DNA of 20,000 nt. Origin: an uncultured virus (IMG/VR IMGVR_UViG_3300025738_000003) (lineage: Duplodnaviria > Heunggongvirae > Uroviricota > Caudoviricetes). Each line of letters begins with the position of its first letter. Within the stretch, counting starts at the first letter, position 1. The position numbers and the translations under genes are program-made. Positions 816 to 19,793 of this stretch are shown in pieces. The DNA is taken from IMG/VR virus record IMGVR_UViG_3300025738_000003; one strand, written 5' to 3'. The notes beneath the pieces were generated by a model. The model did no database searches, was not told the DNA's origin, and saw only the letters and a program-made list of their open reading frames with translations.

Positions 816-844
816 ATCACATATTGTGATACATTGTGTATCAC
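816..844. promoter_or_regulatory. operator-like palindromes upstream of the repA leader
   Basis: ATCACATATTGTGAT (816-830) overlaps GTGATACATTGTGTATCAC (826-844). The core CACATATTGTG is identical to the site at 12463-12473 in the cI-cro intergenic region. Confidence 0.65.
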
Positions 845-2399: not shown

Positions 2400-2612
2400 A
2401 TGGCTAAAGATTTAGAACGAACGCTAAAGAAATGTAAAAAGTGCAAAAGAAAAACTGAGCACTTACGAAATACAGACAAAACAGGTTTATTGTCCCTGTT
2501 AATCCATATAGCGTTAATTTTTATTACGGCTGGTATTTGGCTTATTCTTATTGTTATTTACAAGATCCTTAACGCTAAGGTGGGCGGCTGGCAGTGTAGC
2601 GAGTGTGGTTAA
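2400..2612 (+). CDS. small membrane-anchored zinc-ribbon protein (CxxC-hydrophobic hairpin-CxxC)
   Basis: AAGGA RBS. CKKC near the N-terminus, a long hydrophobic segment, and WQCSECG at the C-terminus. It has its own terminator. Confidence 0.75.
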   Translation: MAKDLERTLKKCKKCKRKTEHLRNTDKTGLLSLLIHIALIFITAGIWLILIVIYKILNAKVGGWQCSECG

Positions 2613-3582: not shown

Positions 3583-3629
3583 AAATAATCACGAATCGTG
3601 TTTAAAAAATAGTAAGCGTGTCGTATTAT
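3583..3629 (+). promoter_or_regulatory. operator plus candidate sigma70 promoter of the 3660-4798 operon
   Basis: CACGAATCGTG (3590-3600) directly abuts TTTAAA (3601-3606), 17 bp, TATTAT (3624-3629). AAATAATCAC (3583-3592) is identical to 811-820. Confidence 0.55.
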
Positions 3630-3659
3630 AGAGACTGGTTTTTTATTGGGAAATGAATA

Positions 3660-3857
3660 ATGGAAGTCACGAATTCAGGCGTTAAAGCAATAGTTAATAT
3701 TGGTCCGGAAGATAATAAATTACAAAAAATCGAGCCGCAACAAGATAAAGCGACTGCGGCACTCAGCACAGACAAGATAACATTGTCTGATGATTTAATT
3801 ATGACTATGGGTACTGGTGGCGGCACTACTAAGCCACCACCAACAACAGAAAACTAA
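3660..3857 (+). CDS. small, probably disordered protein (65 aa) with DKITLS and C-terminal GTGGGTTKPPP motifs
   Basis: Clean ORF whose stop is followed by the AAGGA RBS of the next gene. Polar, low-complexity composition and no Sec signal peptide. Confidence 0.75.
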   Translation: MEVTNSGVKAIVNIGPEDNKLQKIEPQQDKATAALSTDKITLSDDLIMTMGTGGGTTKPPPTTEN

Positions 3858-3867
3858 AGGACATTAC

Positions 3868-4470
3868 ATGGATGTATTATCGTTCTTGATATTTATTGAT
3901 GGGTACGTGGGGAGCTTAAATCATGTACTTATCAATAATCTACTTGCGTTGATCTTGGTTGTTTTGGCTTATGACAATAAAGAAGATAGTAATTTTTTGT
4001 TTGTTATTTCTATGATGTTAATACCAAAGCTAGTTGATATTTTGGTATTGAATGATTTTTTATTGTCTGACTTTGTGCCGAATTATTTATTTTTCTTATT
4101 TTATTCTGTTTATGACGCACTCGTTCTTTGGTTGATTCTATATAGAACCAAAGTGATTCGTCTTTTTTTGATTATAAAAATAAAAGTGTGCCACCTTTTA
4201 AATATAAATAGTGATGCTGAAACTTTTACCTATGTCCGTCATGTTAACGAATATAAAATAACAGTTATCTTTGCAGTAAGCATTCTTATTAACTTAATTG
4301 TAGCTGTCGAATACCCGCTAAGATGGTATATAAGTGATGAAATATTATATTTTTACTATTTGTATGCACCATTAAAATTTGGATTGAATATAGCGTTAGT
4401 TTATTGGGGTTCAAAAATGAATCCCGAAAAACAAAATACCTCAAGGAGTACACCAGGTGAATGTAAGTAA
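3868..4470 (+). CDS. polytopic inner-membrane protein (200 aa, about 5-6 TM), function unknown
   Basis: ATG 3868 with AAGGA at 3857-3861 is preferred over the 3817 start. Several hydrophobic segments and a polar motif (RHVNEY...INL...EYPLR). Confidence 0.8.
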   Translation: MDVLSFLIFIDGYVGSLNHVLINNLLALILVVLAYDNKEDSNFLFVISMMLIPKLVDILVLNDFLLSDFVPNYLFFLFYSVYDALVLWLILYRTKVIRLFLIIKIKVCHLLNINSDAETFTYVRHVNEYKITVIFAVSILINLIVAVEYPLRWYISDEILYFYYLYAPLKFGLNIALVYWGSKMNPEKQNTSRSTPGECK

Positions 4471-4798
4471 CTTTATTGTTGAATTATTTGAACTGTCAGG
4501 ATTGAGTGAGCATGATTTCTGTCAAAAACTCGATATTGATGCCGAACAGTTGGCTGAAATAAAAGCGGGTAAAGCTCCAAGCGGCTCAGCTTGTAAAATG
4601 TTGTTAAAGGCTGTTTCAGTCGCTTTATTTTCCAAAAAGACAAACTGTGACCTTGATGAAGTTCACGACGAATTGACAAAGGCTCGGGCTATCATTGTGA
4701 CGGTTGGGGAAAGCTCGCATTTAGCCGAACATCATCAGGATTCACTATCGGCGGCTGCTGAAATGATTGATAACTCAAGGCAAAGAATATCCTCATAA
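4457..4798 (+). CDS. Xre-like helix-turn-helix protein with a C-terminal helical domain
   Basis: GTG start overlaps the end of the membrane gene. SGLSEHDFCQKLDIDAEQLAEIKAGKAPS fits the HTH_3 pattern. Confidence 0.7.
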   Translation: MNVSNFIVELFELSGLSEHDFCQKLDIDAEQLAEIKAGKAPSGSACKMLLKAVSVALFSKKTNCDLDEVHDELTKARAIIVTVGESSHLAEHHQDSLSAAAEMIDNSRQRISS

Positions 4799-4815
4799 CA
4801 TTAAATACCAGACAA

Positions 4816-4856
4816 TAAAAAGCCGCTCTTATATAATCAATAAGAGCGGCTTTTTA
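4816..4856. terminator. bidirectional terminator
   Basis: TAAAAAGCCGCTCTTAT / ATAAGAGCGGCTTTTTA, a perfect 17-bp inverted repeat between convergent genes. Confidence 0.9.
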
Positions 4857-4872
4857 ATGGTTTATAACTTAC

Positions 4873-4998
4873 CTATTTAATGTTGAACTGGTTCAAGAAA
4901 GGGTAGTAAACGGCTAGGCTTTCACGGATGAATAAAGGCAGTAATATTAATTGTGTTAGTGGCATAGCTCGTAATATGGTAAATTGTTCAATAGACAT
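4873..4998 (-). CDS. small hydrophobic peptide (41 aa), not in the ORF track
   Basis: MSIEQFTILRAMPLTQLILLPLFIRESLAVYYPFLNQFNIK*. GAGGA RBS about 6 nt upstream; ends just before the bidirectional terminator. Confidence 0.6.
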   Translation of the reverse strand: MSIEQFTILRAMPLTQLILLPLFIRESLAVYYPFLNQFNIK

Positions 4999-6299: not shown

Positions 6300-7256
6300 A
6301 TGGAAGTTAAAAAAACAGCAGGGCGCACAGGTATAGATAAAGCGGTTTATATCAATCAAATTCAAACATGGTTAAATGGTGATTTCCGCTTATCTGACAT
6401 TACCGCAACAAAGTTACAAAAAGCTGTTGGCGGTCAATATAAAAAAGCGGTGGATTATTTAGAAGACTTTAAGCAAGGTTATGAAACTAAAGAGCTTGCC
6501 GACTTGCCACAACCACCCGAAGCATTCACCAACCTATTACATGCGGCAGGGCAAGACGCTTGGCGTGTATTGTGGGAAGAAAAAAACAAAGCTGTTGCTG
6601 ATGCTATCGCCGCTTTTGATATTGAACGTACAGCGTTAAACGTTCGCGCTGATGAATATTTAAGTGTGATTGATCAGCATGAACAAGAGATTGACGAGCT
6701 AAAAGCACAACTGTCGGATAGTGATAAAAGTATCAATGAGGTTAACCAAGAAAAAACCACGCTTAATGATGCGTTAACCAATGAACGCATTGCCTTAGCG
6801 CAAACAAGCGAACGCGCTGATCAGTTAGATGCACGTTTAACAGAAGCAAACGGCCAGTTAAACGTTTTTATTGATAAAAACGCGCAACTTGAAAGAGAGA
6901 AAAACCAAAGTAAACAAGACATTGACACGATAACAGAACAAAGAAACGTGTTAACAACGAAAGCCACCAACTTTGAGGATCGCGCCGCTGAATTGCAAGC
7001 CTCACTAACTAACGAAAGCGATAATACTAAGGTGTTAACCAACAAGCTTAATGAGAACGCCGCCGCTAACACTGAGTTAACCACGGAACTAGCCACCAAA
7101 ACAGCATTGTACGATCAGTTATTAACGCAATTAACCAAAGAGCAGGCCCAAGCAGAAAAAGCCAATGAACAAAGCGTAAAATCGTTAAGTGATGTAAATA
7201 AGCGATTAGATAATTTACAACACGAGTTGGTTAAAATTGCGGGAAAGGCTAAGTAA
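6300..7256 (+). CDS. kfrA: KfrA-like plasmid DNA-binding coiled-coil protein
   Basis: N-terminal ITATKLQKAVGGQYKKAVDYLEDF...LPQPPEAF...AW..LW is KfrA_N-like and is followed by about 230 aa of heptad coiled coil. It is divergent from the par operon. Confidence 0.75.
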   Translation: MEVKKTAGRTGIDKAVYINQIQTWLNGDFRLSDITATKLQKAVGGQYKKAVDYLEDFKQGYETKELADLPQPPEAFTNLLHAAGQDAWRVLWEEKNKAVADAIAAFDIERTALNVRADEYLSVIDQHEQEIDELKAQLSDSDKSINEVNQEKTTLNDALTNERIALAQTSERADQLDARLTEANGQLNVFIDKNAQLEREKNQSKQDIDTITEQRNVLTTKATNFEDRAAELQASLTNESDNTKVLTNKLNENAAANTELTTELATKTALYDQLLTQLTKEQAQAEKANEQSVKSLSDVNKRLDNLQHELVKIAGKAK

Positions 7257-8012: not shown

Positions 8013-8225
8013 ATGAATTCATCAATAAACATCACAATAAAAGACTTTAGCTGCACTGATTATGACGTTAAACGTGATTCAAAATTGGTTGGGACTTTAG
8101 TCAAAAACAATAAATATTCAAGCTTACTTAAATTCGTACCGCTTGAAGATTCAGGGCTTATGCACTTGGATGGCAAAGTATTCATGGATGTTTTAACGGC
8201 TAATTTAACTATTGCAAAGGCGTAA
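8013..8225 (+). CDS. hypothetical protein
   Basis: AAGG RBS; first gene after promoter copy 2; its stop overlaps the next ATG (TAATG). Confidence 0.7.
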   Translation: MNSSINITIKDFSCTDYDVKRDSKLVGTLVKNNKYSSLLKFVPLEDSGLMHLDGKVFMDVLTANLTIAKA

Positions 8226-8836
8226 TGAAATTGAAGATATTAAATTTATATGCGGGTCTTGGTGGAAATAGAAAGTTATGGGAGGGGCACGAAGTCACAG
8301 CCGTTGAAATGGATGAAAAAATTGCCGCTGTTTATAAACGATTAAACCCTAATGATGAAGTGATTATTGCTGATGCTCACGAATACTTATTACAACATTA
8401 TCAAGAGTTTGATTTTATTTGGGCCTCGCCTCCATGCCAAAGCCATTCCCGTATGATCAGGTCTGGCAGAAATAGAAAGCCCCGCTTTGCTGATATGAAA
8501 TTGTATGAAGAAATTCTATTTTTAGAACATAACTTTGATGGTCAATGGGTGGTTGAAAATGTCAAACCTTACTACCAGCCATTGATTGAATATCAAAATA
8601 TTGGCCGTCATGTTTTTTGGTCTAACTTCGATATTCCGCACATGGATGAACCAAAATTTAAAAACTTTATTAATGCGCAAAACCTAAAAGCGAAACAAGC
8701 CTTAATGGAGTGGTTAGATATTCACTACGAAGAAAACATTTACTACGGTAACAACCATTGCCCCACGCAGGTTTTGCGTAACTGTGTACACCCTACCGTG
8801 GGAAAACACATCATTGAAGCGGCAATTGCTGCATAA
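8225..8836 (+). CDS. orphan C5-cytosine DNA methyltransferase (compact, phage type)
   Basis: Motif I LNLYAGLGG, motif IV WASPPCQSHS, motif VI VVENV and motif X-like LRNCVHP. No adjacent endonuclease. Confidence 0.9.
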   Translation: MKLKILNLYAGLGGNRKLWEGHEVTAVEMDEKIAAVYKRLNPNDEVIIADAHEYLLQHYQEFDFIWASPPCQSHSRMIRSGRNRKPRFADMKLYEEILFLEHNFDGQWVVENVKPYYQPLIEYQNIGRHVFWSNFDIPHMDEPKFKNFINAQNLKAKQALMEWLDIHYEENIYYGNNHCPTQVLRNCVHPTVGKHIIEAAIAA

Positions 8837-8867
8837 ACTGAACAGAATAGCCCGTAGGGATAAACAA

Positions 8868-9149
8868 ATGATTGTCATATTTAAAAACGAACAGGGTACT
8901 TTTTCGGTAAGACCTGCATTTATAGGCTTTATCAAAAACGATATTATTCGAAGAACTTTAACCTCGTTATTCTTCCCACTAATACTATTTTTAACCATCG
9001 TTATTAATATTATTCAAGCGGCTTTTGTTTCCATTATTTTATTTGCTAGGTCTGTTTATTATCCATTATCAAAGATAAAACCAATGTGGAAAACAGATAT
9101 TTGGCATAGGCCAAGAACGAAAAACGACAATAAAAAAACATTAAACTAA
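8868..9149 (+). CDS. hypothetical membrane protein (93 aa)
   Basis: ATG 8868 with AGGGA RBS is preferred over 8784. Long hydrophobic segment LFFPLILFLTIVINIIQAAFVSIILF. Confidence 0.65.
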   Translation: MIVIFKNEQGTFSVRPAFIGFIKNDIIRRTLTSLFFPLILFLTIVINIIQAAFVSIILFARSVYYPLSKIKPMWKTDIWHRPRTKNDNKKTLN

Positions 9150-11662: not shown

Positions 11663-11726
11663 AATTCCTACCTGTTAAATGGTGTCTTTTCGTGTTTTAT
11701 GATCACGTATCGTGACTCTATAGGGC

Positions 11727-12399: not shown

Positions 12400-12475
12400 C
12401 ACACAATGCAGATATTGCTAATGTAAATACCTTGATACAATCACGGTGTGTGTTATATTTAACACATATTGTGGT
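12400..12475. promoter_or_regulatory. cI-cro switch region with pR-like promoter and operators
   Basis: TTGATA (12432-12437), 16 bp, then TATATT (12454-12459) with an extended -10 TG. Operators CACGGTGTGTG (12442-12452) and CACATATTGTG (12463-12473), plus a degenerate CACACAATGCA (12400-12410). Confidence 0.75.
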
Positions 12476-12490
12476 ATAAGGTGTTTGATA

Positions 12491-12718
12491 GTGACTTTAC
12501 AAGAGTGGGTACAAAAAACATACGGTGATCGAGGCGCTACCAAAGCGGCTGAGTTCCTTGGTTATCCCTATAAAACGGTGATGGCTTGGATTCATTTAAT
12601 ACGTTTTCCGCGTCCTAAAGCGCAAGAGGTCATTAAATTAAAAAGTAATGGTCAGATTGATATGGAGGCGTGGCGAACTAATTATTTAGCGGCAGAAATT
12701 AAGCGTAAAAAATCATGA
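12491..12718 (+). CDS. cro: Cro-like repressor (75 aa)
   Basis: GTG 12491 with AAGGTG RBS. TLQEWV...GATKAAEFLGYPYKTVMAW...RFPRP...IKLKSNGQI is a Cro/YdaS-type HTH, divergent from cI. Confidence 0.8.
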   Translation: MTLQEWVQKTYGDRGATKAAEFLGYPYKTVMAWIHLIRFPRPKAQEVIKLKSNGQIDMEAWRTNYLAAEIKRKKS

Positions 12719-13983: not shown

Positions 13984-15165
13984 ATGAATGCTATCACCGT
14001 TAAGCTGTCAGACGCTGAGCTAAAGCGACAAATTGAAACCGAGGTAAAGGAATTAAACGATCCTAGATTACCACTTAGGGTGCGTTTTCATAAATCCCGA
14101 GAAAAGGCCACTATCTTTTTAGTGGAATACGTTAAGGGCCAAGGTAAATGGCATAGGGTTGGCTATTGGCCGCAATTAACGATTAAAGCCCTAATTAACA
14201 CTAAGTATTGGGCTGAGCTTCAACAAAAGTATTTGTTATCAGGTCAGGTTGAGTTTGATGCCTTTTATTTGGCGGCTGACGTACTGGTTTGGTACAGAGA
14301 ACGGGCGTTAAGTCAGGTTAATTTATCTAAAGATAGAAAAGCTAATATTAAGTCGGTGATCAATAAACACTTAATCCCCATGATAGGCCATTACCAGGTA
14401 AAAGAGTTTTCCCCCGAAATCATAGAAGAGGCTTTTATCTGGCCGTTACAAAGTCGCTATAAATTATCGACAGTACAACAATATTTCAAAGTATTAAAAC
14501 GTATTTTCAAACAAGCAAAATTAAGTAAAAAGCTATGTAATAACCCATTGGCCGACATTAAGTTAAGTGACTCGATCACCGGAAAAATAGAAATAAAAGC
14601 CTGTCAAATAGCAACACATGATCTAGATGCTCTATTTAAAACCATGAAGATAATACCCTTTGAACCCAGCTTTTTAGTATTAACTATGTTGTGTTTTGGT
14701 ACGCGTATAGGCGAAACACGACAAATGAAAATAAGCCATTTAGAACATGATCAGCAGCAATGGCATTTACCCGCAAAAATAACCAAAACCAATGAGCCAT
14801 TAGTTACCCCAATAAGCGATTGGTATTTAACTTTACTTAACGAATATAGAAAAAAGCAAACGTTGATAAATGGCTATAGCGGTGTCTATTTATTTCCTAA
14901 TACTAAGGGCGATTGTATTAATGAAAACACCGCCAATGATTATGTTCAATACTTATCTAATAGAGAATGGACGGCTCACGATTTACGCAAATTAGCGCGT
15001 ACTACTTGGGCAACATTACACGTTGATTATTTTGTTGGTGAGCAGTTGTTAAACCATAAAATGAAAGACTTAGACGCCGCTTATATTCACAGCACATTAG
15101 ATGAATTGAAACGAAAAGCCATTAACGATTGGCATTTTTTTTTGGCGCAAAAAAAGCCGAAATAA
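13984..15165 (+). CDS. tyrosine recombinase (phage integrase family)
   Basis: Catalytic set GTRIGE, TKT, HDLRK, LLNH and AAYIH is intact, with an N-terminal arm-binding-like region. Confidence 0.9.
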   Translation: MNAITVKLSDAELKRQIETEVKELNDPRLPLRVRFHKSREKATIFLVEYVKGQGKWHRVGYWPQLTIKALINTKYWAELQQKYLLSGQVEFDAFYLAADVLVWYRERALSQVNLSKDRKANIKSVINKHLIPMIGHYQVKEFSPEIIEEAFIWPLQSRYKLSTVQQYFKVLKRIFKQAKLSKKLCNNPLADIKLSDSITGKIEIKACQIATHDLDALFKTMKIIPFEPSFLVLTMLCFGTRIGETRQMKISHLEHDQQQWHLPAKITKTNEPLVTPISDWYLTLLNEYRKKQTLINGYSGVYLFPNTKGDCINENTANDYVQYLSNREWTAHDLRKLARTTWATLHVDYFVGEQLLNHKMKDLDAAYIHSTLDELKRKAINDWHFFLAQKKPK

Positions 15166-15973: not shown

Positions 15974-16047
15974 TAAACACATTTCGTGGTTAAATGTCAC
16001 GAAATGTGTTTACAGGCGTGGCCTAAAAATATACCATCTTCTATAAC
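15974..16047 (+). promoter_or_regulatory. late (pR'-like) promoter with paired operators
   Basis: Perfect 15-bp inverted repeat TAAACACATTTCGTG / CACGAAATGTGTTTA (15974-16012). TTTACA (16009-16014), 17 bp, TACCAT (16032-16037), with a second -10-like TATAAC at 16042-16047. Confidence 0.7.
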
Positions 16048-16138: not shown

Positions 16139-16621
16139 ATGACCTTTCATTACGGCGTTACCTCGGTTTCAAGTCTTAAAGTTATTTGTAAGCGCGTGGT
16201 TGCTGTGCTTGGTGGTGGTGACGATGCCGTTAATTTATTAATTGAAACCTGTTGCGCTGAAACGTTGGCGGGTCTTTATCCTGATAATACACCTGAGCGT
16301 TTAGGGGTTGGCGTGACGCAAATAGACCAAATCGCCTTAGATGATATTCACCAAGAGGGTGAACAACGTCATTTTGATTTGATCGCGCAAGAGTTTGGTT
16401 ATGACATTAAAAAAACCCGCCTCTCCTATTTAGCGTTTAACCCTGAGTTAGCCGTTATTATTGCCCGTTTAGTTTATAAGCGTAAACCGCAAGCCATACC
16501 CGAAACATTATGTGGTCGCGCTGACTACTGGAAAGAGTTTTATAACACGGCGGCGGGCAAAGGCAGTTGTTTACATTACTTTGATAACGTGGCCGAAGTA
16601 TTAGGCGAGGAATGGCGCTAA
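16139..16621 (+). CDS. putative endolysin (lysozyme-like fold)
   Basis: LLIETCCAET (candidate catalytic Glu), GVGVTQID, AVIIARLVY...IP and RADYWKEFYNTAAGKG, as in marine phage lysozyme-like proteins. First gene of the late operon. Confidence 0.75.
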   Translation: MTFHYGVTSVSSLKVICKRVVAVLGGGDDAVNLLIETCCAETLAGLYPDNTPERLGVGVTQIDQIALDDIHQEGEQRHFDLIAQEFGYDIKKTRLSYLAFNPELAVIIARLVYKRKPQAIPETLCGRADYWKEFYNTAAGKGSCLHYFDNVAEVLGEEWR

Positions 16622-19127: not shown

Positions 19128-19793
19128 CTAAAGCCATTCAACGGCTAACATTTCTTTAATTATATTTTGGTCAATAACAACGTATTGAATCGTAGTTTCA
19201 ACGCTATCATGGCCTAAAATACGCGCCATTTGATCAAGTGTTGTTCCACTGGTAACCGCATTAGTTACCAGGGACTTTCTACCAGAATGACTACTAGCCG
19301 AATTATAACCAGACTTTTTATAAATCTTTCTTATGATCGCTTCAAGCGCATCACAAGCCAGATAAATTTTTATAGTTTTATCCGTCATTTTTCGCGGTTG
19401 CGGCTGTATTGAATAAGCACGACCTCGATTGTTAAAAATCAATTTACTGTTAGGGCTCAGCCCTTGATATTTGTTGTCACCAGATAAACCCCAACGCCGT
19501 GATATTCGATAATCAATCCACTCTTGAATAATTAGCCGACTGACTTTATTGGTTAGCCAAATGGTACGGGGCTTTAAGCTCTTGCAAATTTTAGAGGGTA
19601 AATGAATTTCTTCACGTATAAGGCCGCTTGGATAAATAACATTCTCTACTTCAAGTAATGATATTTCGGTTACGCGCATAGCTGCATGACTAAGAACTAT
19701 CACACAACGTTTCATTTCTTTGTCTTGCATGATTAAACAAGTTTTAAGAACGCGCTTAATTTCGTGGGGTTTTAATGAATTGGCTTTGCTCAT
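19128..19793 (-). CDS. short tyrosine recombinase (catalytic domain only)
   Basis: AMRVTEI, ICKS, SSHSGRKS and ILGH...TTIQY. 221 aa with a GGAG RBS and no N-terminal binding domains. Confidence 0.9.
   Translation of the reverse strand: MSKANSLKPHEIKRVLKTCLIMQDKEMKRCVIVLSHAAMRVTEISLLEVENVIYPSGLIREEIHLPSKICKSLKPRTIWLTNKVSRLIIQEWIDYRISRRWGLSGDNKYQGLSPNSKLIFNNRGRAYSIQPQPRKMTDKTIKIYLACDALEAIIRKIYKKSGYNSASSHSGRKSLVTNAVTSGTTLDQMARILGHDSVETTIQYVVIDQNIIKEMLAVEWL

What the first reader, a model, noticed from the sequence alone, without database searches (positions are those of the whole stretch)
3583..4856. Candidate peptide-receptor-regulator signalling operon on a phage-plasmid
Seen: a closed three-gene unit with its own promoter/operator and terminator. 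It encodes a 65-aa polar peptide ending MGTGGGTTKPPPTTEN, a 200-aa polytopic membrane protein of no family I recognise, and an overlapping Xre-HTH gene. The peptide has no Sec signal but contains DKITLS within a disordered N-terminal region, reminiscent of the D-x-V-x-L-S motif of FlgM, a flagellar type III export substrate. The unit carries the same operator as the cI/cro switch. Inference: the peptide is an exported signal, the membrane protein its receptor or immunity partner, and the HTH protein the output (possibly an antirepressor or regulator). This would be an arbitrium-like communication system in a Gram-negative element. Toxin-immunity or superinfection exclusion are alternatives.
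Basis: partly seen in the sequence, partly recalled or inferred. Interest (0 to 1): 0.85.

Follow-up and report, generated by a model that had tools for sequence, protein, structure and literature searches.

The report
Conserved peptide–membrane protein operon, phage-plasmid
A marine phage-plasmid carries a real, self-contained three-gene operon (a small glycine/proline-motif peptide, a five-helix membrane protein and a small acidic helix-turn-helix-like protein) of no known family, and its peptide tail and membrane protein change type together, as expected of a matched pair, but what the operon does is still unknown.

Summary
Window 3583-4856 is a closed operon with a promoter, one copy of the element's CACR-N3-YGTG operator, three ORFs and a terminator. 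The host element is a complete siphovirus that also has RepA and ParA.

All six related elements with DNA in hand keep the same gene order: peptide, then membrane protein, then gene 3. None of the three proteins matches Pfam, PHROGs, NCBIfam, PADLOC, PDB or sequenced phages and plasmids. The one exception is a sub-threshold Xre HTH match in gene 3.

New findings:
- The peptide has a leader, an invariant T-G-G-G and a short Pro-rich tail. The motif occurs one to three times per peptide, and the tails fall into a few types.
- Tail type follows the clade of the membrane protein's N-terminal 120 residues, not the backbone.
- Window and L009 share 97% resolvase identity but only 39% membrane-protein identity. 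The membrane data reject their sisterhood (p-AU 3e-5).

The operon therefore holds a hypervariable, probably cognate, peptide/membrane-protein pair.

Bacteriocin-immunity and exclusion or toxin-antitoxin readings are not excluded. The FlgM/flagellar export idea found no support. Gene 3 is acidic and an unlikely classical DNA binder.

The parts
3590..3600 (.). Operator palindrome CACGAATCGTG. It is one of seven CACR-N3-YGTG sites in the window and abuts the -35 hexamer. Its centre is about -41 from the inferred transcription start.
   Evidence: 7 sites against 0.8 expected; all intergenic; conserved in L005, L007 and L009. The position relative to the transcription start is my inference.
3601..3629 (+). 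Sigma-70-like promoter: TTTAAA, 17-nt spacer, TATTAT.
   Evidence: GTGTCGTATTAT is invariant in 4 of 4 aligned upstream regions. No experimental transcription start is known.
3660..3857 (+). Gene for a 65-aa acidic precursor-like peptide: leader residues 1-51, invariant T52-G53-G54-G55, tail TTKPPPTTEN.
   Evidence: 12 family members. Shine-Dalgarno-like GGA/GGAGG/AAGGAG upstream, and synonymous third-base changes inside the invariant motif; the antisense ORF is not kept in L007.
3810..3842 (+). Codons for the GTGGGTTKPPP motif (residues 51-61). The motif is present once here and 2-3 times in some relatives.
3868..4470 (+). Gene for a 200-aa inner-membrane protein with 5 TM helices plus an N-terminal helix and a basic amphipathic helix (93-110). 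D83, R93, E128 and E148 are invariant. N42, D57, N142, Y163, Y166 and K170 are nearly invariant.
   Evidence: AF2 model with pLDDT 88 and pTM 0.80; loop charges give N-out/C-in by the positive-inside rule, which is an inference.
4457..4798 (+). Gene 3: a 113-aa acidic protein with an N-terminal degenerate Xre-type HTH (about residues 9-52) and a conserved C-terminal segment (LTxAxAIIVTVGESEHLAxHxQ...). It is translationally coupled to the membrane gene.
   Evidence: The gene junction is -14 to +4 nt in all 6 elements.
4816..4856 (.). Intrinsic terminator with a 17-bp stem. It has an A-run before and a T-run after, so it may act in both directions.

Best explanation
This is a self-contained accessory operon of a marine phage-plasmid, wired into the element's immunity regulon through one CACR-N3-YGTG operator. 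It encodes a cognate peptide/membrane-protein specificity pair plus a small cytoplasmic adaptor.

My leading reading is a peptide-based kin-recognition or communication module.
1. The 65-aa peptide is a precursor with a leader, an invariant T-G-G-G and a short Pro-rich tail that comes in a few discrete types (TTKPPP, G/AQKPPP, V/IQQP, AKRPP).
2. The tail is released at or near TGGG and leaves the cell.
3. The matching 5-TM protein recognises it through its type-specific N-terminal 120 residues and a conserved intramembrane polar cluster (D57, D83, N142, E148, Y163, Y166, K170).
4. This changes how the membrane protein's basic cytoplasmic loop (residues 92-125) holds the translationally coupled, acidic gene-3 protein.
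5. Gene 3 then acts on the cI/Cro switch, more likely by protein-protein contact than as a classical DNA binder.

Shown: the operon, its conservation, strict co-occurrence, the leader/TGGG/tail architecture with motif repeats, the hypervariable centre, the congruence of tail type with membrane clade, and the shared operator.

Inferred and untested: cleavage, export, binding, membrane tethering of gene 3, and any effect on lysis or lysogeny.
For: (1) Co-occurrence. The order peptide, membrane protein, gene 3 holds in 6 of 6 distinct elements with DNA: window, L005, L006/L008, L007, L009 and L011. The most distant has only 36% membrane-protein identity. Two more sets share a contig length in the protein database, 4150 and 6437; this is inferred, not proven, co-location. 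In Shewanella psychrophila the membrane and gene-3 homologues carry consecutive locus tags, Sps_04675 and Sps_04676.

(2) Precursor-like peptide. All 12 family members carry [GS]TGGG-x-x-[KQR]-P-[PDS]-like motifs in 1-3 copies. In one member the ORF ends exactly after TTQPPP. Synonymous codon changes occur inside the invariant motif.

(3) Leader and tail are uncoupled. The closest leaders (84% and 80% identity) have different tails (33% and 42%), while distant leaders (33%) share a tail (80%).

(4) Tail type follows the clade of the membrane N-terminal part. TTx goes with E1, E2, E3 and E7 (N-part identity 50-61%). xQx goes with E4, E5 and E8 (49-62%). Identity between the groups is 30-42%.

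(5) Hypervariable centre. For window against L009, resolvase DNA is 90-98% identical, the leader 67-82%, the tail and membrane gene 40-63%, and gene 3 70-82%. Against L007, ParA is 93% and ParB 83% identical, but the membrane protein is 42% and the peptide 32%. The membrane data reject E1+E5 as a clade (p-AU 2.9e-5), although their resolvases are 97% identical.

(6) The operator motif is shared with the cI/cro region and is conserved upstream of the peptide gene in relatives.

(7) The membrane protein has conserved charged and polar residues inside its TM helices and a confident model. Gene 3 and the peptide are acidic, and the cytoplasmic loop of the membrane protein is basic.
Against: - The peptide has no signal peptide or TM segment. 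No exporter, protease or modifying enzyme is encoded in the 38-kb element.
- The membrane protein has no recognisable signalling domain and no informative structural neighbour. The best Foldseek matches have E 0.78 (PDB) and 0.07 (viral). The best VIA Z of 9.7 is on generic helical bundles, inside the range the tool calls uninformative for helical proteins.
- Tail and membrane N-part are adjacent on the DNA. One recombination block with a breakpoint in the conserved TGGG codons would give the same congruence without any functional coupling.
- The groups in the AU test were named after I had seen the identity table. The gene-3 data do not reject the membrane topology (p 0.21).
- E7 and E8 have similar tails (78%) but dissimilar membrane N-parts (38%) unless only the first two tail residues count.
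- It is unknown which protein binds the operator, and whether the site represses or activates. Its centre near -41 would also suit a class-II activator.
- There are no expression data.
Confidence: 0.3

Rival explanations
1. Bacteriocin/RiPP-like peptide with a cognate immunity or export protein. The peptide would be a precursor of a short Pro-rich antimicrobial or competition peptide, with the TGGG region acting like a (double-)glycine cleavage site. The 5-TM protein would be the type-matched immunity or export factor, and gene 3 a regulator.
For: The peptide has a leader/hinge/variable-core architecture with 1-3 core copies. The peptide tail and membrane protein diverge together in an otherwise conserved backbone, as in bacteriocin-immunity cassettes. 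The module sits in the accessory region of a plasmid-like replicon. A distant membrane homologue in Pseudoalteromonas piscicida sits next to a VgrG-like toxin ORF, preceded by a Gly-motif ORF and an Xre HTH gene.
Against: There is no C39-peptidase ABC exporter or modifying enzyme in the element. The spacing of hydrophobic residues before GG does not fit the classical double-glycine leader; this rests on my reading of the sequence against a recalled consensus. The tails are 6-17 residues, hydrophilic and without Cys. The P. piscicida upstream ORF is not significantly similar to the peptide family (hhalign E 0.12).
Confidence: 0.2
2. Intracellular conflict module: toxin-antitoxin/addiction, abortive infection or superinfection exclusion. 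The 5-TM protein would be a membrane effector. The translationally coupled acidic HTH-like gene 3 would be its antitoxin or regulator (toxin-first order as in HigBA and MqsRA, recalled). The disordered peptide would be a third, labile modulator. Hypervariability would reflect an arms race with competing phages or plasmids.
For: The membrane gene and gene 3 are tightly coupled, with junctions of -14 to +4 nt in 6 of 6 elements. Gene 3 is small and acidic, with an N-terminal HTH-like domain and a conserved C-terminal segment. The module lies between the resolvase and parAB, where plasmid stability genes usually sit. It is the fastest-diverging part of the element. The membrane/gene-3 pair also occurs in a bacterial chromosome.
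Against: Neither protein matches any PADLOC, Pfam or NCBIfam defence or toxin-antitoxin family. A 200-aa protein with an invariant intramembrane polar network is unlike the known small membrane toxins (recalled knowledge). This reading does not explain the invariant, repeated TGGGxxKPP motif or the discrete tail types.
Confidence: 0.25
3. Sensor plus small-ORF antirepressor module, of the kind described in plasmid-like vibriophages. The 65-aa protein would act inside the cell to inactivate the cI-like repressor, or another regulator. The membrane protein and gene 3 would set when this happens.
For: Plasmid-like phages carry TF-smORF modules near repA or par, whose 52-57-aa products inactivate cI and have no homologues or domains (PMC10432266, passages read). 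Here a small ORF sits near repA and par and carries the switch operator.
Against: In those modules the smORF is divergently transcribed from a bona fide transcription factor. Here all three genes are co-oriented, the putative TF is a sub-threshold acidic HTH, and a membrane protein lies between them. The repeated TGGG..PP motif and its linkage with the membrane protein are not explained.
Confidence: 0.1
4. Regulatory leader peptide. Translation of the Gly-Gly-Gly...Pro-Pro-Pro ORF would stall ribosomes just upstream of the membrane gene and tune its translation. EF-P dependence of polyproline stalling is recalled knowledge.
For: PPP or PDP lies 3-10 codons before the stop, and the stop lies 10-41 nt before the membrane gene start. 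One ORF ends in PPP-stop. GGN and CCN codons can pair into a hairpin.
Against: The hairpin is not consistently stable: z-scores were -1.3, +1.2, -3.1 and 0.0 in 4 loci. The motif also occurs near the N-terminus in 2-3-copy peptides. The conserved leader and the discrete tail types linked to the membrane clade are unnecessary for a stalling device.
Confidence: 0.05

Closest known systems
Arbitrium (AimP-AimR-AimX) of Bacillus phages
   Same: Both are phage-encoded. Both have a short precursor whose conserved motif and variable residues lie at or near the C-terminus, discrete peptide types among related phages, and a link to the lysis-lysogeny control region. The arbitrium features are recalled, plus the abstract start of bioRxiv 10.1101/2025.11.23.689978 in the listing.
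   Different: No AimR-like TPR receptor was found by Pfam. The peptide has no Sec signal. The partner is a 5-TM protein of unknown family. The host is a Gram-negative of the Alteromonadales type. No homology exists.
agr and com pherotype cassettes (AgrD with AgrB/AgrC; ComC with ComD)
   Same: Both have a contiguous hypervariable block that covers the peptide core and the adjoining part of a polytopic membrane partner, flanked by conserved sequence. This gives specificity groups. The agr/com features are recalled; the pattern here comes.
   Different: There is no histidine kinase or response regulator. No AgrB family match appeared in the Pfam scan. The peptide has no Cys for a thiolactone, and no ABC/C39 exporter is present.
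TF-smORF induction modules of plasmid-like phages (Silpe et al. 2023, PMC10432266)
   Same: Both are accessory regulatory modules in plasmid-like temperate phages of marine gammaproteobacteria, near repA or par, with a domain-less ORF of about 55-65 aa and an XRE-type partner (passages read).
   Different: Those modules are two divergently transcribed genes without a membrane protein. Their smORFs have no conserved motif. Here there are three co-oriented genes and a conserved repeated motif.
Class II bacteriocin/microcin precursor plus immunity protein
   Same: Both have a leader ending in glycines, a variable core, an adjacent small membrane protein that varies with the core, and plasmid carriage (bacteriocin features recalled).
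   Different: The leader spacing does not fit the double-glycine consensus. The core is tiny, hydrophilic and Pro-rich. There is no dedicated exporter. The membrane protein is larger and has an invariant polar network.
Toxin-first type II toxin-antitoxin pairs with Xre-HTH antitoxins (HigBA, MqsRA)
   Same: Both have tightly coupled genes, with the second encoding a small acidic HTH protein, in a plasmid stability region (toxin-antitoxin features recalled).
   Different: The first gene here is a polytopic membrane protein, not an RNase. A third, motif-bearing peptide gene is always present. No family match was found.
Lambda CII / CIII
   Same: Gene 3 has about the size and layout of CII (N-terminal HTH, C-terminal helix), and a distant relative is labelled 'Bacteriophage CII protein' by UniRef. 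A small peptide gene accompanies it.
   Different: hhalign against lambda CII gave E 0.51, and the peptide against CIII gave E 0.95. Gene 3 is acidic.

Membership tests
Arbitrium / RRNPP peptide signalling | Cytoplasmic TPR-type receptor (AimR/RRNPP) encoded next to the peptide gene | tested here: not met
   No TPR or AimR family was found in any window ORF by Pfam or PHROGs. The neighbours are a 5-TM protein and a 113-aa protein.
Arbitrium / RRNPP peptide signalling | Precursor with an N-terminal Sec signal peptide; mature peptide taken from the C-terminus | tested here: not met
   The peptide is hydrophilic throughout, with no hydrophobic N-terminal stretch (sequences). A C-terminal conserved motif is present.
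agr-type system | AgrB-family membrane peptidase, Cys-containing AgrD, and a histidine kinase with its response regulator | tested here: not met
   No AgrB, HisKA or HATPase family appeared in the Pfam scan. None of the 12 peptides has a Cys.
Double-glycine-leader peptides (bacteriocins, competence pheromones) | Leader consensus ending in GG, and a C39-peptidase ABC exporter | tested here: inconclusive
   A TGGG run follows an LSDD-type segment, but the spacing is off by 1-2 residues against the recalled consensus. No ABC/C39 gene is in the element. A host exporter could not be examined.
FlgM (anti-sigma-28, flagellar type III export substrate) | Match to the FlgM family profile | tested here: not met
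   0 of 5 peptides hit FlgM in Pfam at E up to 10. HMMER filters drop most hits above E 0.1. Export itself cannot be tested here.
Xre-type HTH (Pfam HTH_3) | Score at or above the Pfam gathering threshold | tested here: inconclusive
   The score is 20.2 bits against a cut-off of 23, and 2 of 5 members match. hhalign of the 20-sequence profile to a canonical Xre HTH gave E 8e-5, probability 61%. ESM feature neighbours are all HTH clusters, but at 0.81-0.83.
Lambda CII family | Sequence or profile similarity to CII | tested here: not met
   hhalign of A3 against lambda CII gave E 0.51, probability 0.1%. Phage_CII was not among the Pfam hits.
Known anti-phage defence / toxin-antitoxin families | Match to a PADLOC, Pfam or NCBIfam model | tested here: not met
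   There were 0 PADLOC families at E up to 1 for the three proteins. NCBIfam gave nothing for the peptide and membrane protein, and only a far-sub-threshold FtcD hit (E 0.024) for gene 3.
TF-smORF modules (Silpe et al. 2023) | A transcription factor activating a divergently transcribed small ORF that inactivates cI | tested here: not met
   The arrangement differs: the genes are co-oriented and a membrane gene lies between them. The functional criterion cannot be tested with these tools.

The most novel reading that the evidence does not exclude
A peptide-based, pherotype-diversified communication or kin-discrimination system of Gram-negative phage-plasmids. It would be built from three families with no known relatives: a leader-TGGG-tail precursor, a 5-TM non-kinase receptor whose N-terminal half co-switches with the tail, and a membrane-tethered acidic HTH-like output protein acting on the cI/Cro switch.
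Probability: 0.25. Interest if true: 0.9.

Novelty: new variant of a known kind. Interest (0 to 1): 0.62.

Why it matters
Peptide communication that steers phage lysis-lysogeny decisions is, to my knowledge, established only for Gram-positive phages (arbitrium). The plasmid-like phages of Gram-negative bacteria studied so far listen to host small-molecule autoinducers or use TF-smORF modules. A phage-plasmid-encoded peptide with a matched membrane partner, diversified into types, would open that question in marine Gram-negative hosts.

Even if the module proves to be an immunity, exclusion or addiction device, it still matters. It defines three uncharacterised protein families. It contains a clear hypervariable 'specificity' centre. 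It also gives an experimentally tractable prediction: tail type should match membrane-protein type.

Tried and rejected
- **FlgM resemblance:** no Pfam hit to FlgM for 5 of 5 peptides at E up to 10.
- **Lambda CII/CIII homology:** hhalign E 0.51 and 0.95.
- **DNA and protein searches of sequenced plasmids and phages:** no match for the unit, the membrane protein or gene 3. RepA finds only distant relatives at 27-35% identity.
- **Pattern scans of genome contigs:** two scans found nothing. The cluster look-up nevertheless shows distant homologues in Shewanella and Pseudoalteromonas isolates, so those scans were simply too strict.
- **Wide alignment A5:** Sub-alignments A6 and A9 found only the L011 contig. 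The P0018 query found nothing in viral contigs, and gene 3 in viral contigs found only the window's own element.
- **Structure:** the first AF2 model from 8 sequences was poor (pLDDT 61.8). The 23-sequence model was good but found no informative neighbour in PDB Foldseek, VIA wide or BFVD. ESM Atlas scores stayed under 0.9. The PDB sequence search with the gene-3 profile found only a coiled-coil artefact.
No peptide/membrane/gene-3 binding prediction exists.
- **Sequencing runs:** no RNA holder is listed, and one DNA run holds a small share of words, which I did not lay.
- **RNA-hairpin explanation of GGG...PPP:** folding was not consistently better than shuffles.
- **Rfam and tRNA scans:** nothing.
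- **Earlier findings of this scan:** nothing.
- **Literature:** two full-text searches (listings and abstract starts only) showed no similar module. Passages of PMC10432266 were read. Its supplements were not opened.
- **Antisense ORF (3626-3826, minus strand):** rejected as the coding frame. It is not kept in L007 and lacks a conserved start. It shares wobble positions with the plus frame, so the synonymous-change argument alone does not exclude it.
Full report
**What is in the sequence**

Window 3583-4856 holds three co-oriented ORFs.
- The first is a 65-aa peptide gene (3660-3857) ending MGTGGGTTKPPPTTEN.
- The second is a 200-aa hydrophobic protein gene (3868-4470). The ATG at 3868 is the real start, because all homologues begin MDVL.
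- The third is a 113-aa gene (4457-4798, GTG start preceded by AAGGAG) that overlaps the second by 14 nt.

A sigma-70-like promoter (TTTAAA, 17 nt, TATTAT; 3601-3629) precedes the unit, and a 17-bp-stem terminator (4816-4856) follows it. Promoter-like sites as such are not enriched in the region. This -10 element and the adjoining palindrome are, however, conserved in three related loci.

**Context**

The window encodes an IncFII-type RepA, a serine resolvase directly upstream of the unit, and a ParA-like ATPase with a small partner gene convergent on it. It also encodes a cI-like HTH/S24 repressor, two tyrosine recombinases, methyltransferases and a tail-fibre-like protein.

The nearest held record, G001, is 38,249 bp with 123-bp terminal repeats and a CheckV completeness of 100%. 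It contains the unit at 100% identity. Its other half is a full siphovirus module with terminase, portal, protease, capsid, tape measure and tail genes. 'Phage-plasmid' is therefore a fair description. An identical copy also lies on a 106,816-bp metagenome contig that I could not inspect.

**The operator**

No k-mer of 9 or more links the unit's promoter to the cI/cro intergenic region. The palindrome CACR-N3-YGTG, however, occurs 7 times in the window against 0.8 expected, and 0 of 200 shuffles reach 7. All copies lie between genes:
- upstream of repA (818);
- at the unit (3590);
- between dam and cI (11704);
- twice between cI and the Cro-like gene (12442, 12463);
- twice upstream of the ORF at 16139 (15978, 15998).

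At the cro-side promoter the sites fall in the spacer and at the start region, which suggests repression. At the unit, the single site abuts the -35 hexamer, with its centre about -41 from the inferred start. That position could mean repression or class-II-type activation. Which protein binds is unknown. The cI-like repressor is the obvious candidate (inference).

**Conservation**

The membrane protein has only 7 relatives by word-seeded search. A full profile search of 1.84 billion cluster representatives found 21.

I obtained DNA for six distinct elements: the window, L005, L006/L008, L007, L009 and the distant L011. L011 has 36% membrane-protein identity and lies on a second viral record of 44 kb, estimated 96% complete. 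In 6 of 6 the order is small peptide, membrane protein, gene 3, with membrane/gene-3 junctions of -14 to +4 nt. The flanks vary: a serine resolvase, a tyrosine recombinase, or no recombinase upstream, and par genes downstream.

Protein-database members with equal contig lengths suggest two further complete sets. In Shewanella psychrophila the membrane and gene-3 homologues have consecutive locus tags. More distant membrane homologues occur in Pseudoalteromonas species and Shewanella sp. Scap07.

In a Pseudoalteromonas piscicida replicon, the order is a canonical Xre HTH gene, then a 105-aa ORF with two GSGGV motifs, then the membrane homologue, then a VgrG-like ORF. That upstream ORF is not significantly similar to the peptide family.

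**The peptide**

Twelve family members were found. All begin M-(E/K)-(V/I). All carry [GS]TGGG-x-x-[KQR]-P-[PDS]-like motifs. Seven have one copy near the C-terminus, and five have two or three copies. One ORF stops directly after TTQPPP.

The motif is kept through synonymous third-base changes, and the start codon has a Shine-Dalgarno-like sequence in every locus, AAGGAG in L011. The antisense ORF shares wobble positions, so that argument alone does not exclude it. It is broken in L007, though, and has no conserved start. No Pfam family, FlgM included, matches even at E 10. The peptide is acidic (pI 4.6), has no hydrophobic segment and has no Cys.

**The membrane protein**

Hydropathy analysis and an AlphaFold2 model built from 23 sequences (pLDDT 88, pTM 0.80) give seven helices: 3-15, 19-36, 41-65, 72-91, 93-110, 126-154 and 161-182. 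Loop charges are 6 K/R in residues 92-125, 4 in the C-tail and none in the presumed outer loops. This suggests five TM helices with the N-terminus out and the C-terminus in, plus a basic amphipathic cytoplasmic helix (inference).

D83, R93, E128 and E148 are invariant across the family. N42, D57, N142, Y163, Y166 and K170 are nearly so. This buried polar network would suit a binding site, a channel or a catalytic site.

Fold searches gave nothing specific. The best Foldseek matches had E 0.78 (PDB) and 0.07 (viral). The best VIA Z of 9.7 fell on generic helical bundles, within the range the tool itself flags as uninformative for helical proteins. ESM Atlas scores were below 0.9.

**Gene 3**

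Twenty relatives were found. HTH_3 scores below threshold (20.2 bits against 23) and matches 2 of 5 members. A 20-sequence profile aligns its residues 3-40 to a canonical Xre HTH (E 8e-5, probability 61%). The ESM feature neighbours are HTH clusters at 0.81-0.83.

The protein is acidic (pI 5.1, net charge -7), and the segment aligned to the recognition helix reads DAEQLAEIKAG. I therefore doubt that it binds DNA in the classical way (inference). The C-terminal 45 residues are the best conserved part. They match nothing in the PDB by sequence apart from a coiled-coil artefact. One relative is labelled 'Bacteriophage CII protein' by UniRef, but profile comparison with lambda CII is not significant.

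**The new observation: a hypervariable, co-switching centre**

Within the peptide, leader and tail evolve independently. The two most similar leader pairs (84% and 80%) have dissimilar tails (33% and 42%). Very different leaders (33%) carry nearly the same tail (80%).

Across eight elements, tail type follows the clade of the membrane protein's N-terminal 120 residues.

| Tail type | Elements | Identity of membrane N-part within the group |
|---|---|---|
| TT[KQ] | E1, E2, E3, E7 | 50-61% |
| [IVG]Q[QK] | E4, E5, E8 | 49-62% |
| AKR | E6 | stands alone |

Identity between the TT[KQ] and [IVG]Q[QK] groups is 30-42%.

Leader and gene 3 group differently: E1 with E5, and E4 with E8.

At the DNA level, window against L009 runs as follows.

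| Region | DNA identity |
|---|---|
| Resolvase | 90-98% |
| Promoter | 83% |
| Peptide leader | 67-82% |
| Tail and membrane gene | 40-63% |
| Gene 3 | 70-82% |

Against L007, ParA is 93% and ParB 83% identical, while the membrane protein is 42% and the peptide 32%.

A maximum-likelihood analysis of the membrane proteins rejects E1+E5 as a clade (p-AU 2.9e-5), although their resolvases are 97% identical. The gene-3 data prefer E1 with E4, E5 and E8 but do not reject the membrane topology (p 0.21).

Caveats:
- The groups were named after I had seen the identity tables.
- Tail and membrane N-part are adjacent, so a single recombination block gives the same picture.

**Interpretation**

The data show a real operon whose centre, the peptide tail plus the membrane protein, is the fastest-changing and apparently exchanged part of otherwise conserved elements. 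This is the signature of specificity determinants: signal and receptor, toxin and immunity, or exclusion and target.

The leader/TGGG/variable-tail design, the repeated motif and the few discrete tail types make me favour a processed peptide with a matched membrane partner. With the switch operator and the coupled small HTH-like protein, a communication or kin-recognition module is the single most likely reading (about 0.3). It is closely followed by an intracellular conflict module (toxin-antitoxin, abortive infection or exclusion; about 0.25) and a bacteriocin-immunity pair (about 0.2). Smaller shares go to a smORF-type antirepressor (about 0.1) and a stalling leader peptide (about 0.05).

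Export, cleavage, binding and output are all untested. No exporter or protease is encoded in the element, and the FlgM analogy has no support.

**Comparison with known systems**

The logic resembles arbitrium and, in its contiguous hypervariable block, the agr and com pherotype cassettes. It also sits where plasmid-like phages keep TF-smORF sensory modules (PMC10432266, passages read). It is a member of none of these. Every family-defining feature that I could test was absent or sub-threshold (see the membership table).

Two full-text literature searches, read as listings only, showed no similar module.

**Verdict**

In my reading this is a new variant of the peptide-plus-cognate-membrane-partner theme, built from uncharacterised families. 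Interest is 0.62.

Noticed in passing
window 4873-4998 (minus strand); L007 3693-3818 (minus strand): A conserved 41-aa hydrophobic ORF (MSIEQFTILRAMPLTQLILLPLF...) with a GAGGAT Shine-Dalgarno lies between the unit's terminator and the par genes. It is 68% identical between the window and L007. It may be a small membrane protein or a type-I-toxin-like gene.
   Followed up: partly
window 818-828, 11704-11714, 12442-12452, 12463-12473, 15978-15988, 15998-16008: These are the six other copies of the CACR-N3-YGTG palindrome, all intergenic. They lie upstream of repA, between dam and cI, in the cI/cro region, and as a pair upstream of the ORF at 16139. Together they look like the element's immunity regulon.
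   Followed up: partly
window 2400-2612: A 70-aa protein with CxxC...CxxC zinc-ribbon ends around one TM helix (weak LITAF-like hit). It is conserved upstream of the module in L005, L007, L008 and L009. In L008 it sits directly before the peptide gene, with no resolvase between them.
   Followed up: no
window 12446-12718: The Cro-like ORF probably starts at GTG 12491 (Shine-Dalgarno AAGGTG), not at GTG 12446. The PHROG match begins at residue 16, and two operator copies lie upstream of 12491.
   Followed up: partly
window 8225-8836 and 8784-9149: The C5 cytosine methyltransferase match covers only the first ~80 profile positions of a 203-aa ORF, which overlaps a second 121-aa ORF. The gene may be split or frameshifted. 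L005 has a 256-aa relative at the equivalent place.
   Followed up: no
window 13984-15165 and 19128-19793 (minus strand): There are two tyrosine recombinase genes in an element that also has RepA and ParA. The element may therefore both integrate and replicate as a plasmid. An identical copy of the module lies on a 106,816-bp metagenome contig (L004) that I could not inspect; it could be a concatemer or an integrated copy.
   Followed up: no
window 6300-7256: A 318-aa coiled-coil protein lies divergent from parA. Its weak SMC/Rad50/LmuB/JetC hits are probably due to coiled-coil composition only.
   Followed up: no
L016 4400-9476 (Pseudoalteromonas piscicida NZ_CP074588.1): A distant membrane homologue is preceded by a canonical Xre HTH gene and a 105-aa ORF with two GSGGV motifs. 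It is followed by a 1202-aa VgrG-like ORF with a nuclease-like C-terminus. None of these is annotated in the PLSDB table.
   Followed up: partly
window 3813-3842: The GGN codons of TGGG and the CCN codons of PPP can pair into a small mRNA hairpin. The fold is not consistently more stable than shuffles across four loci.
   Followed up: yes
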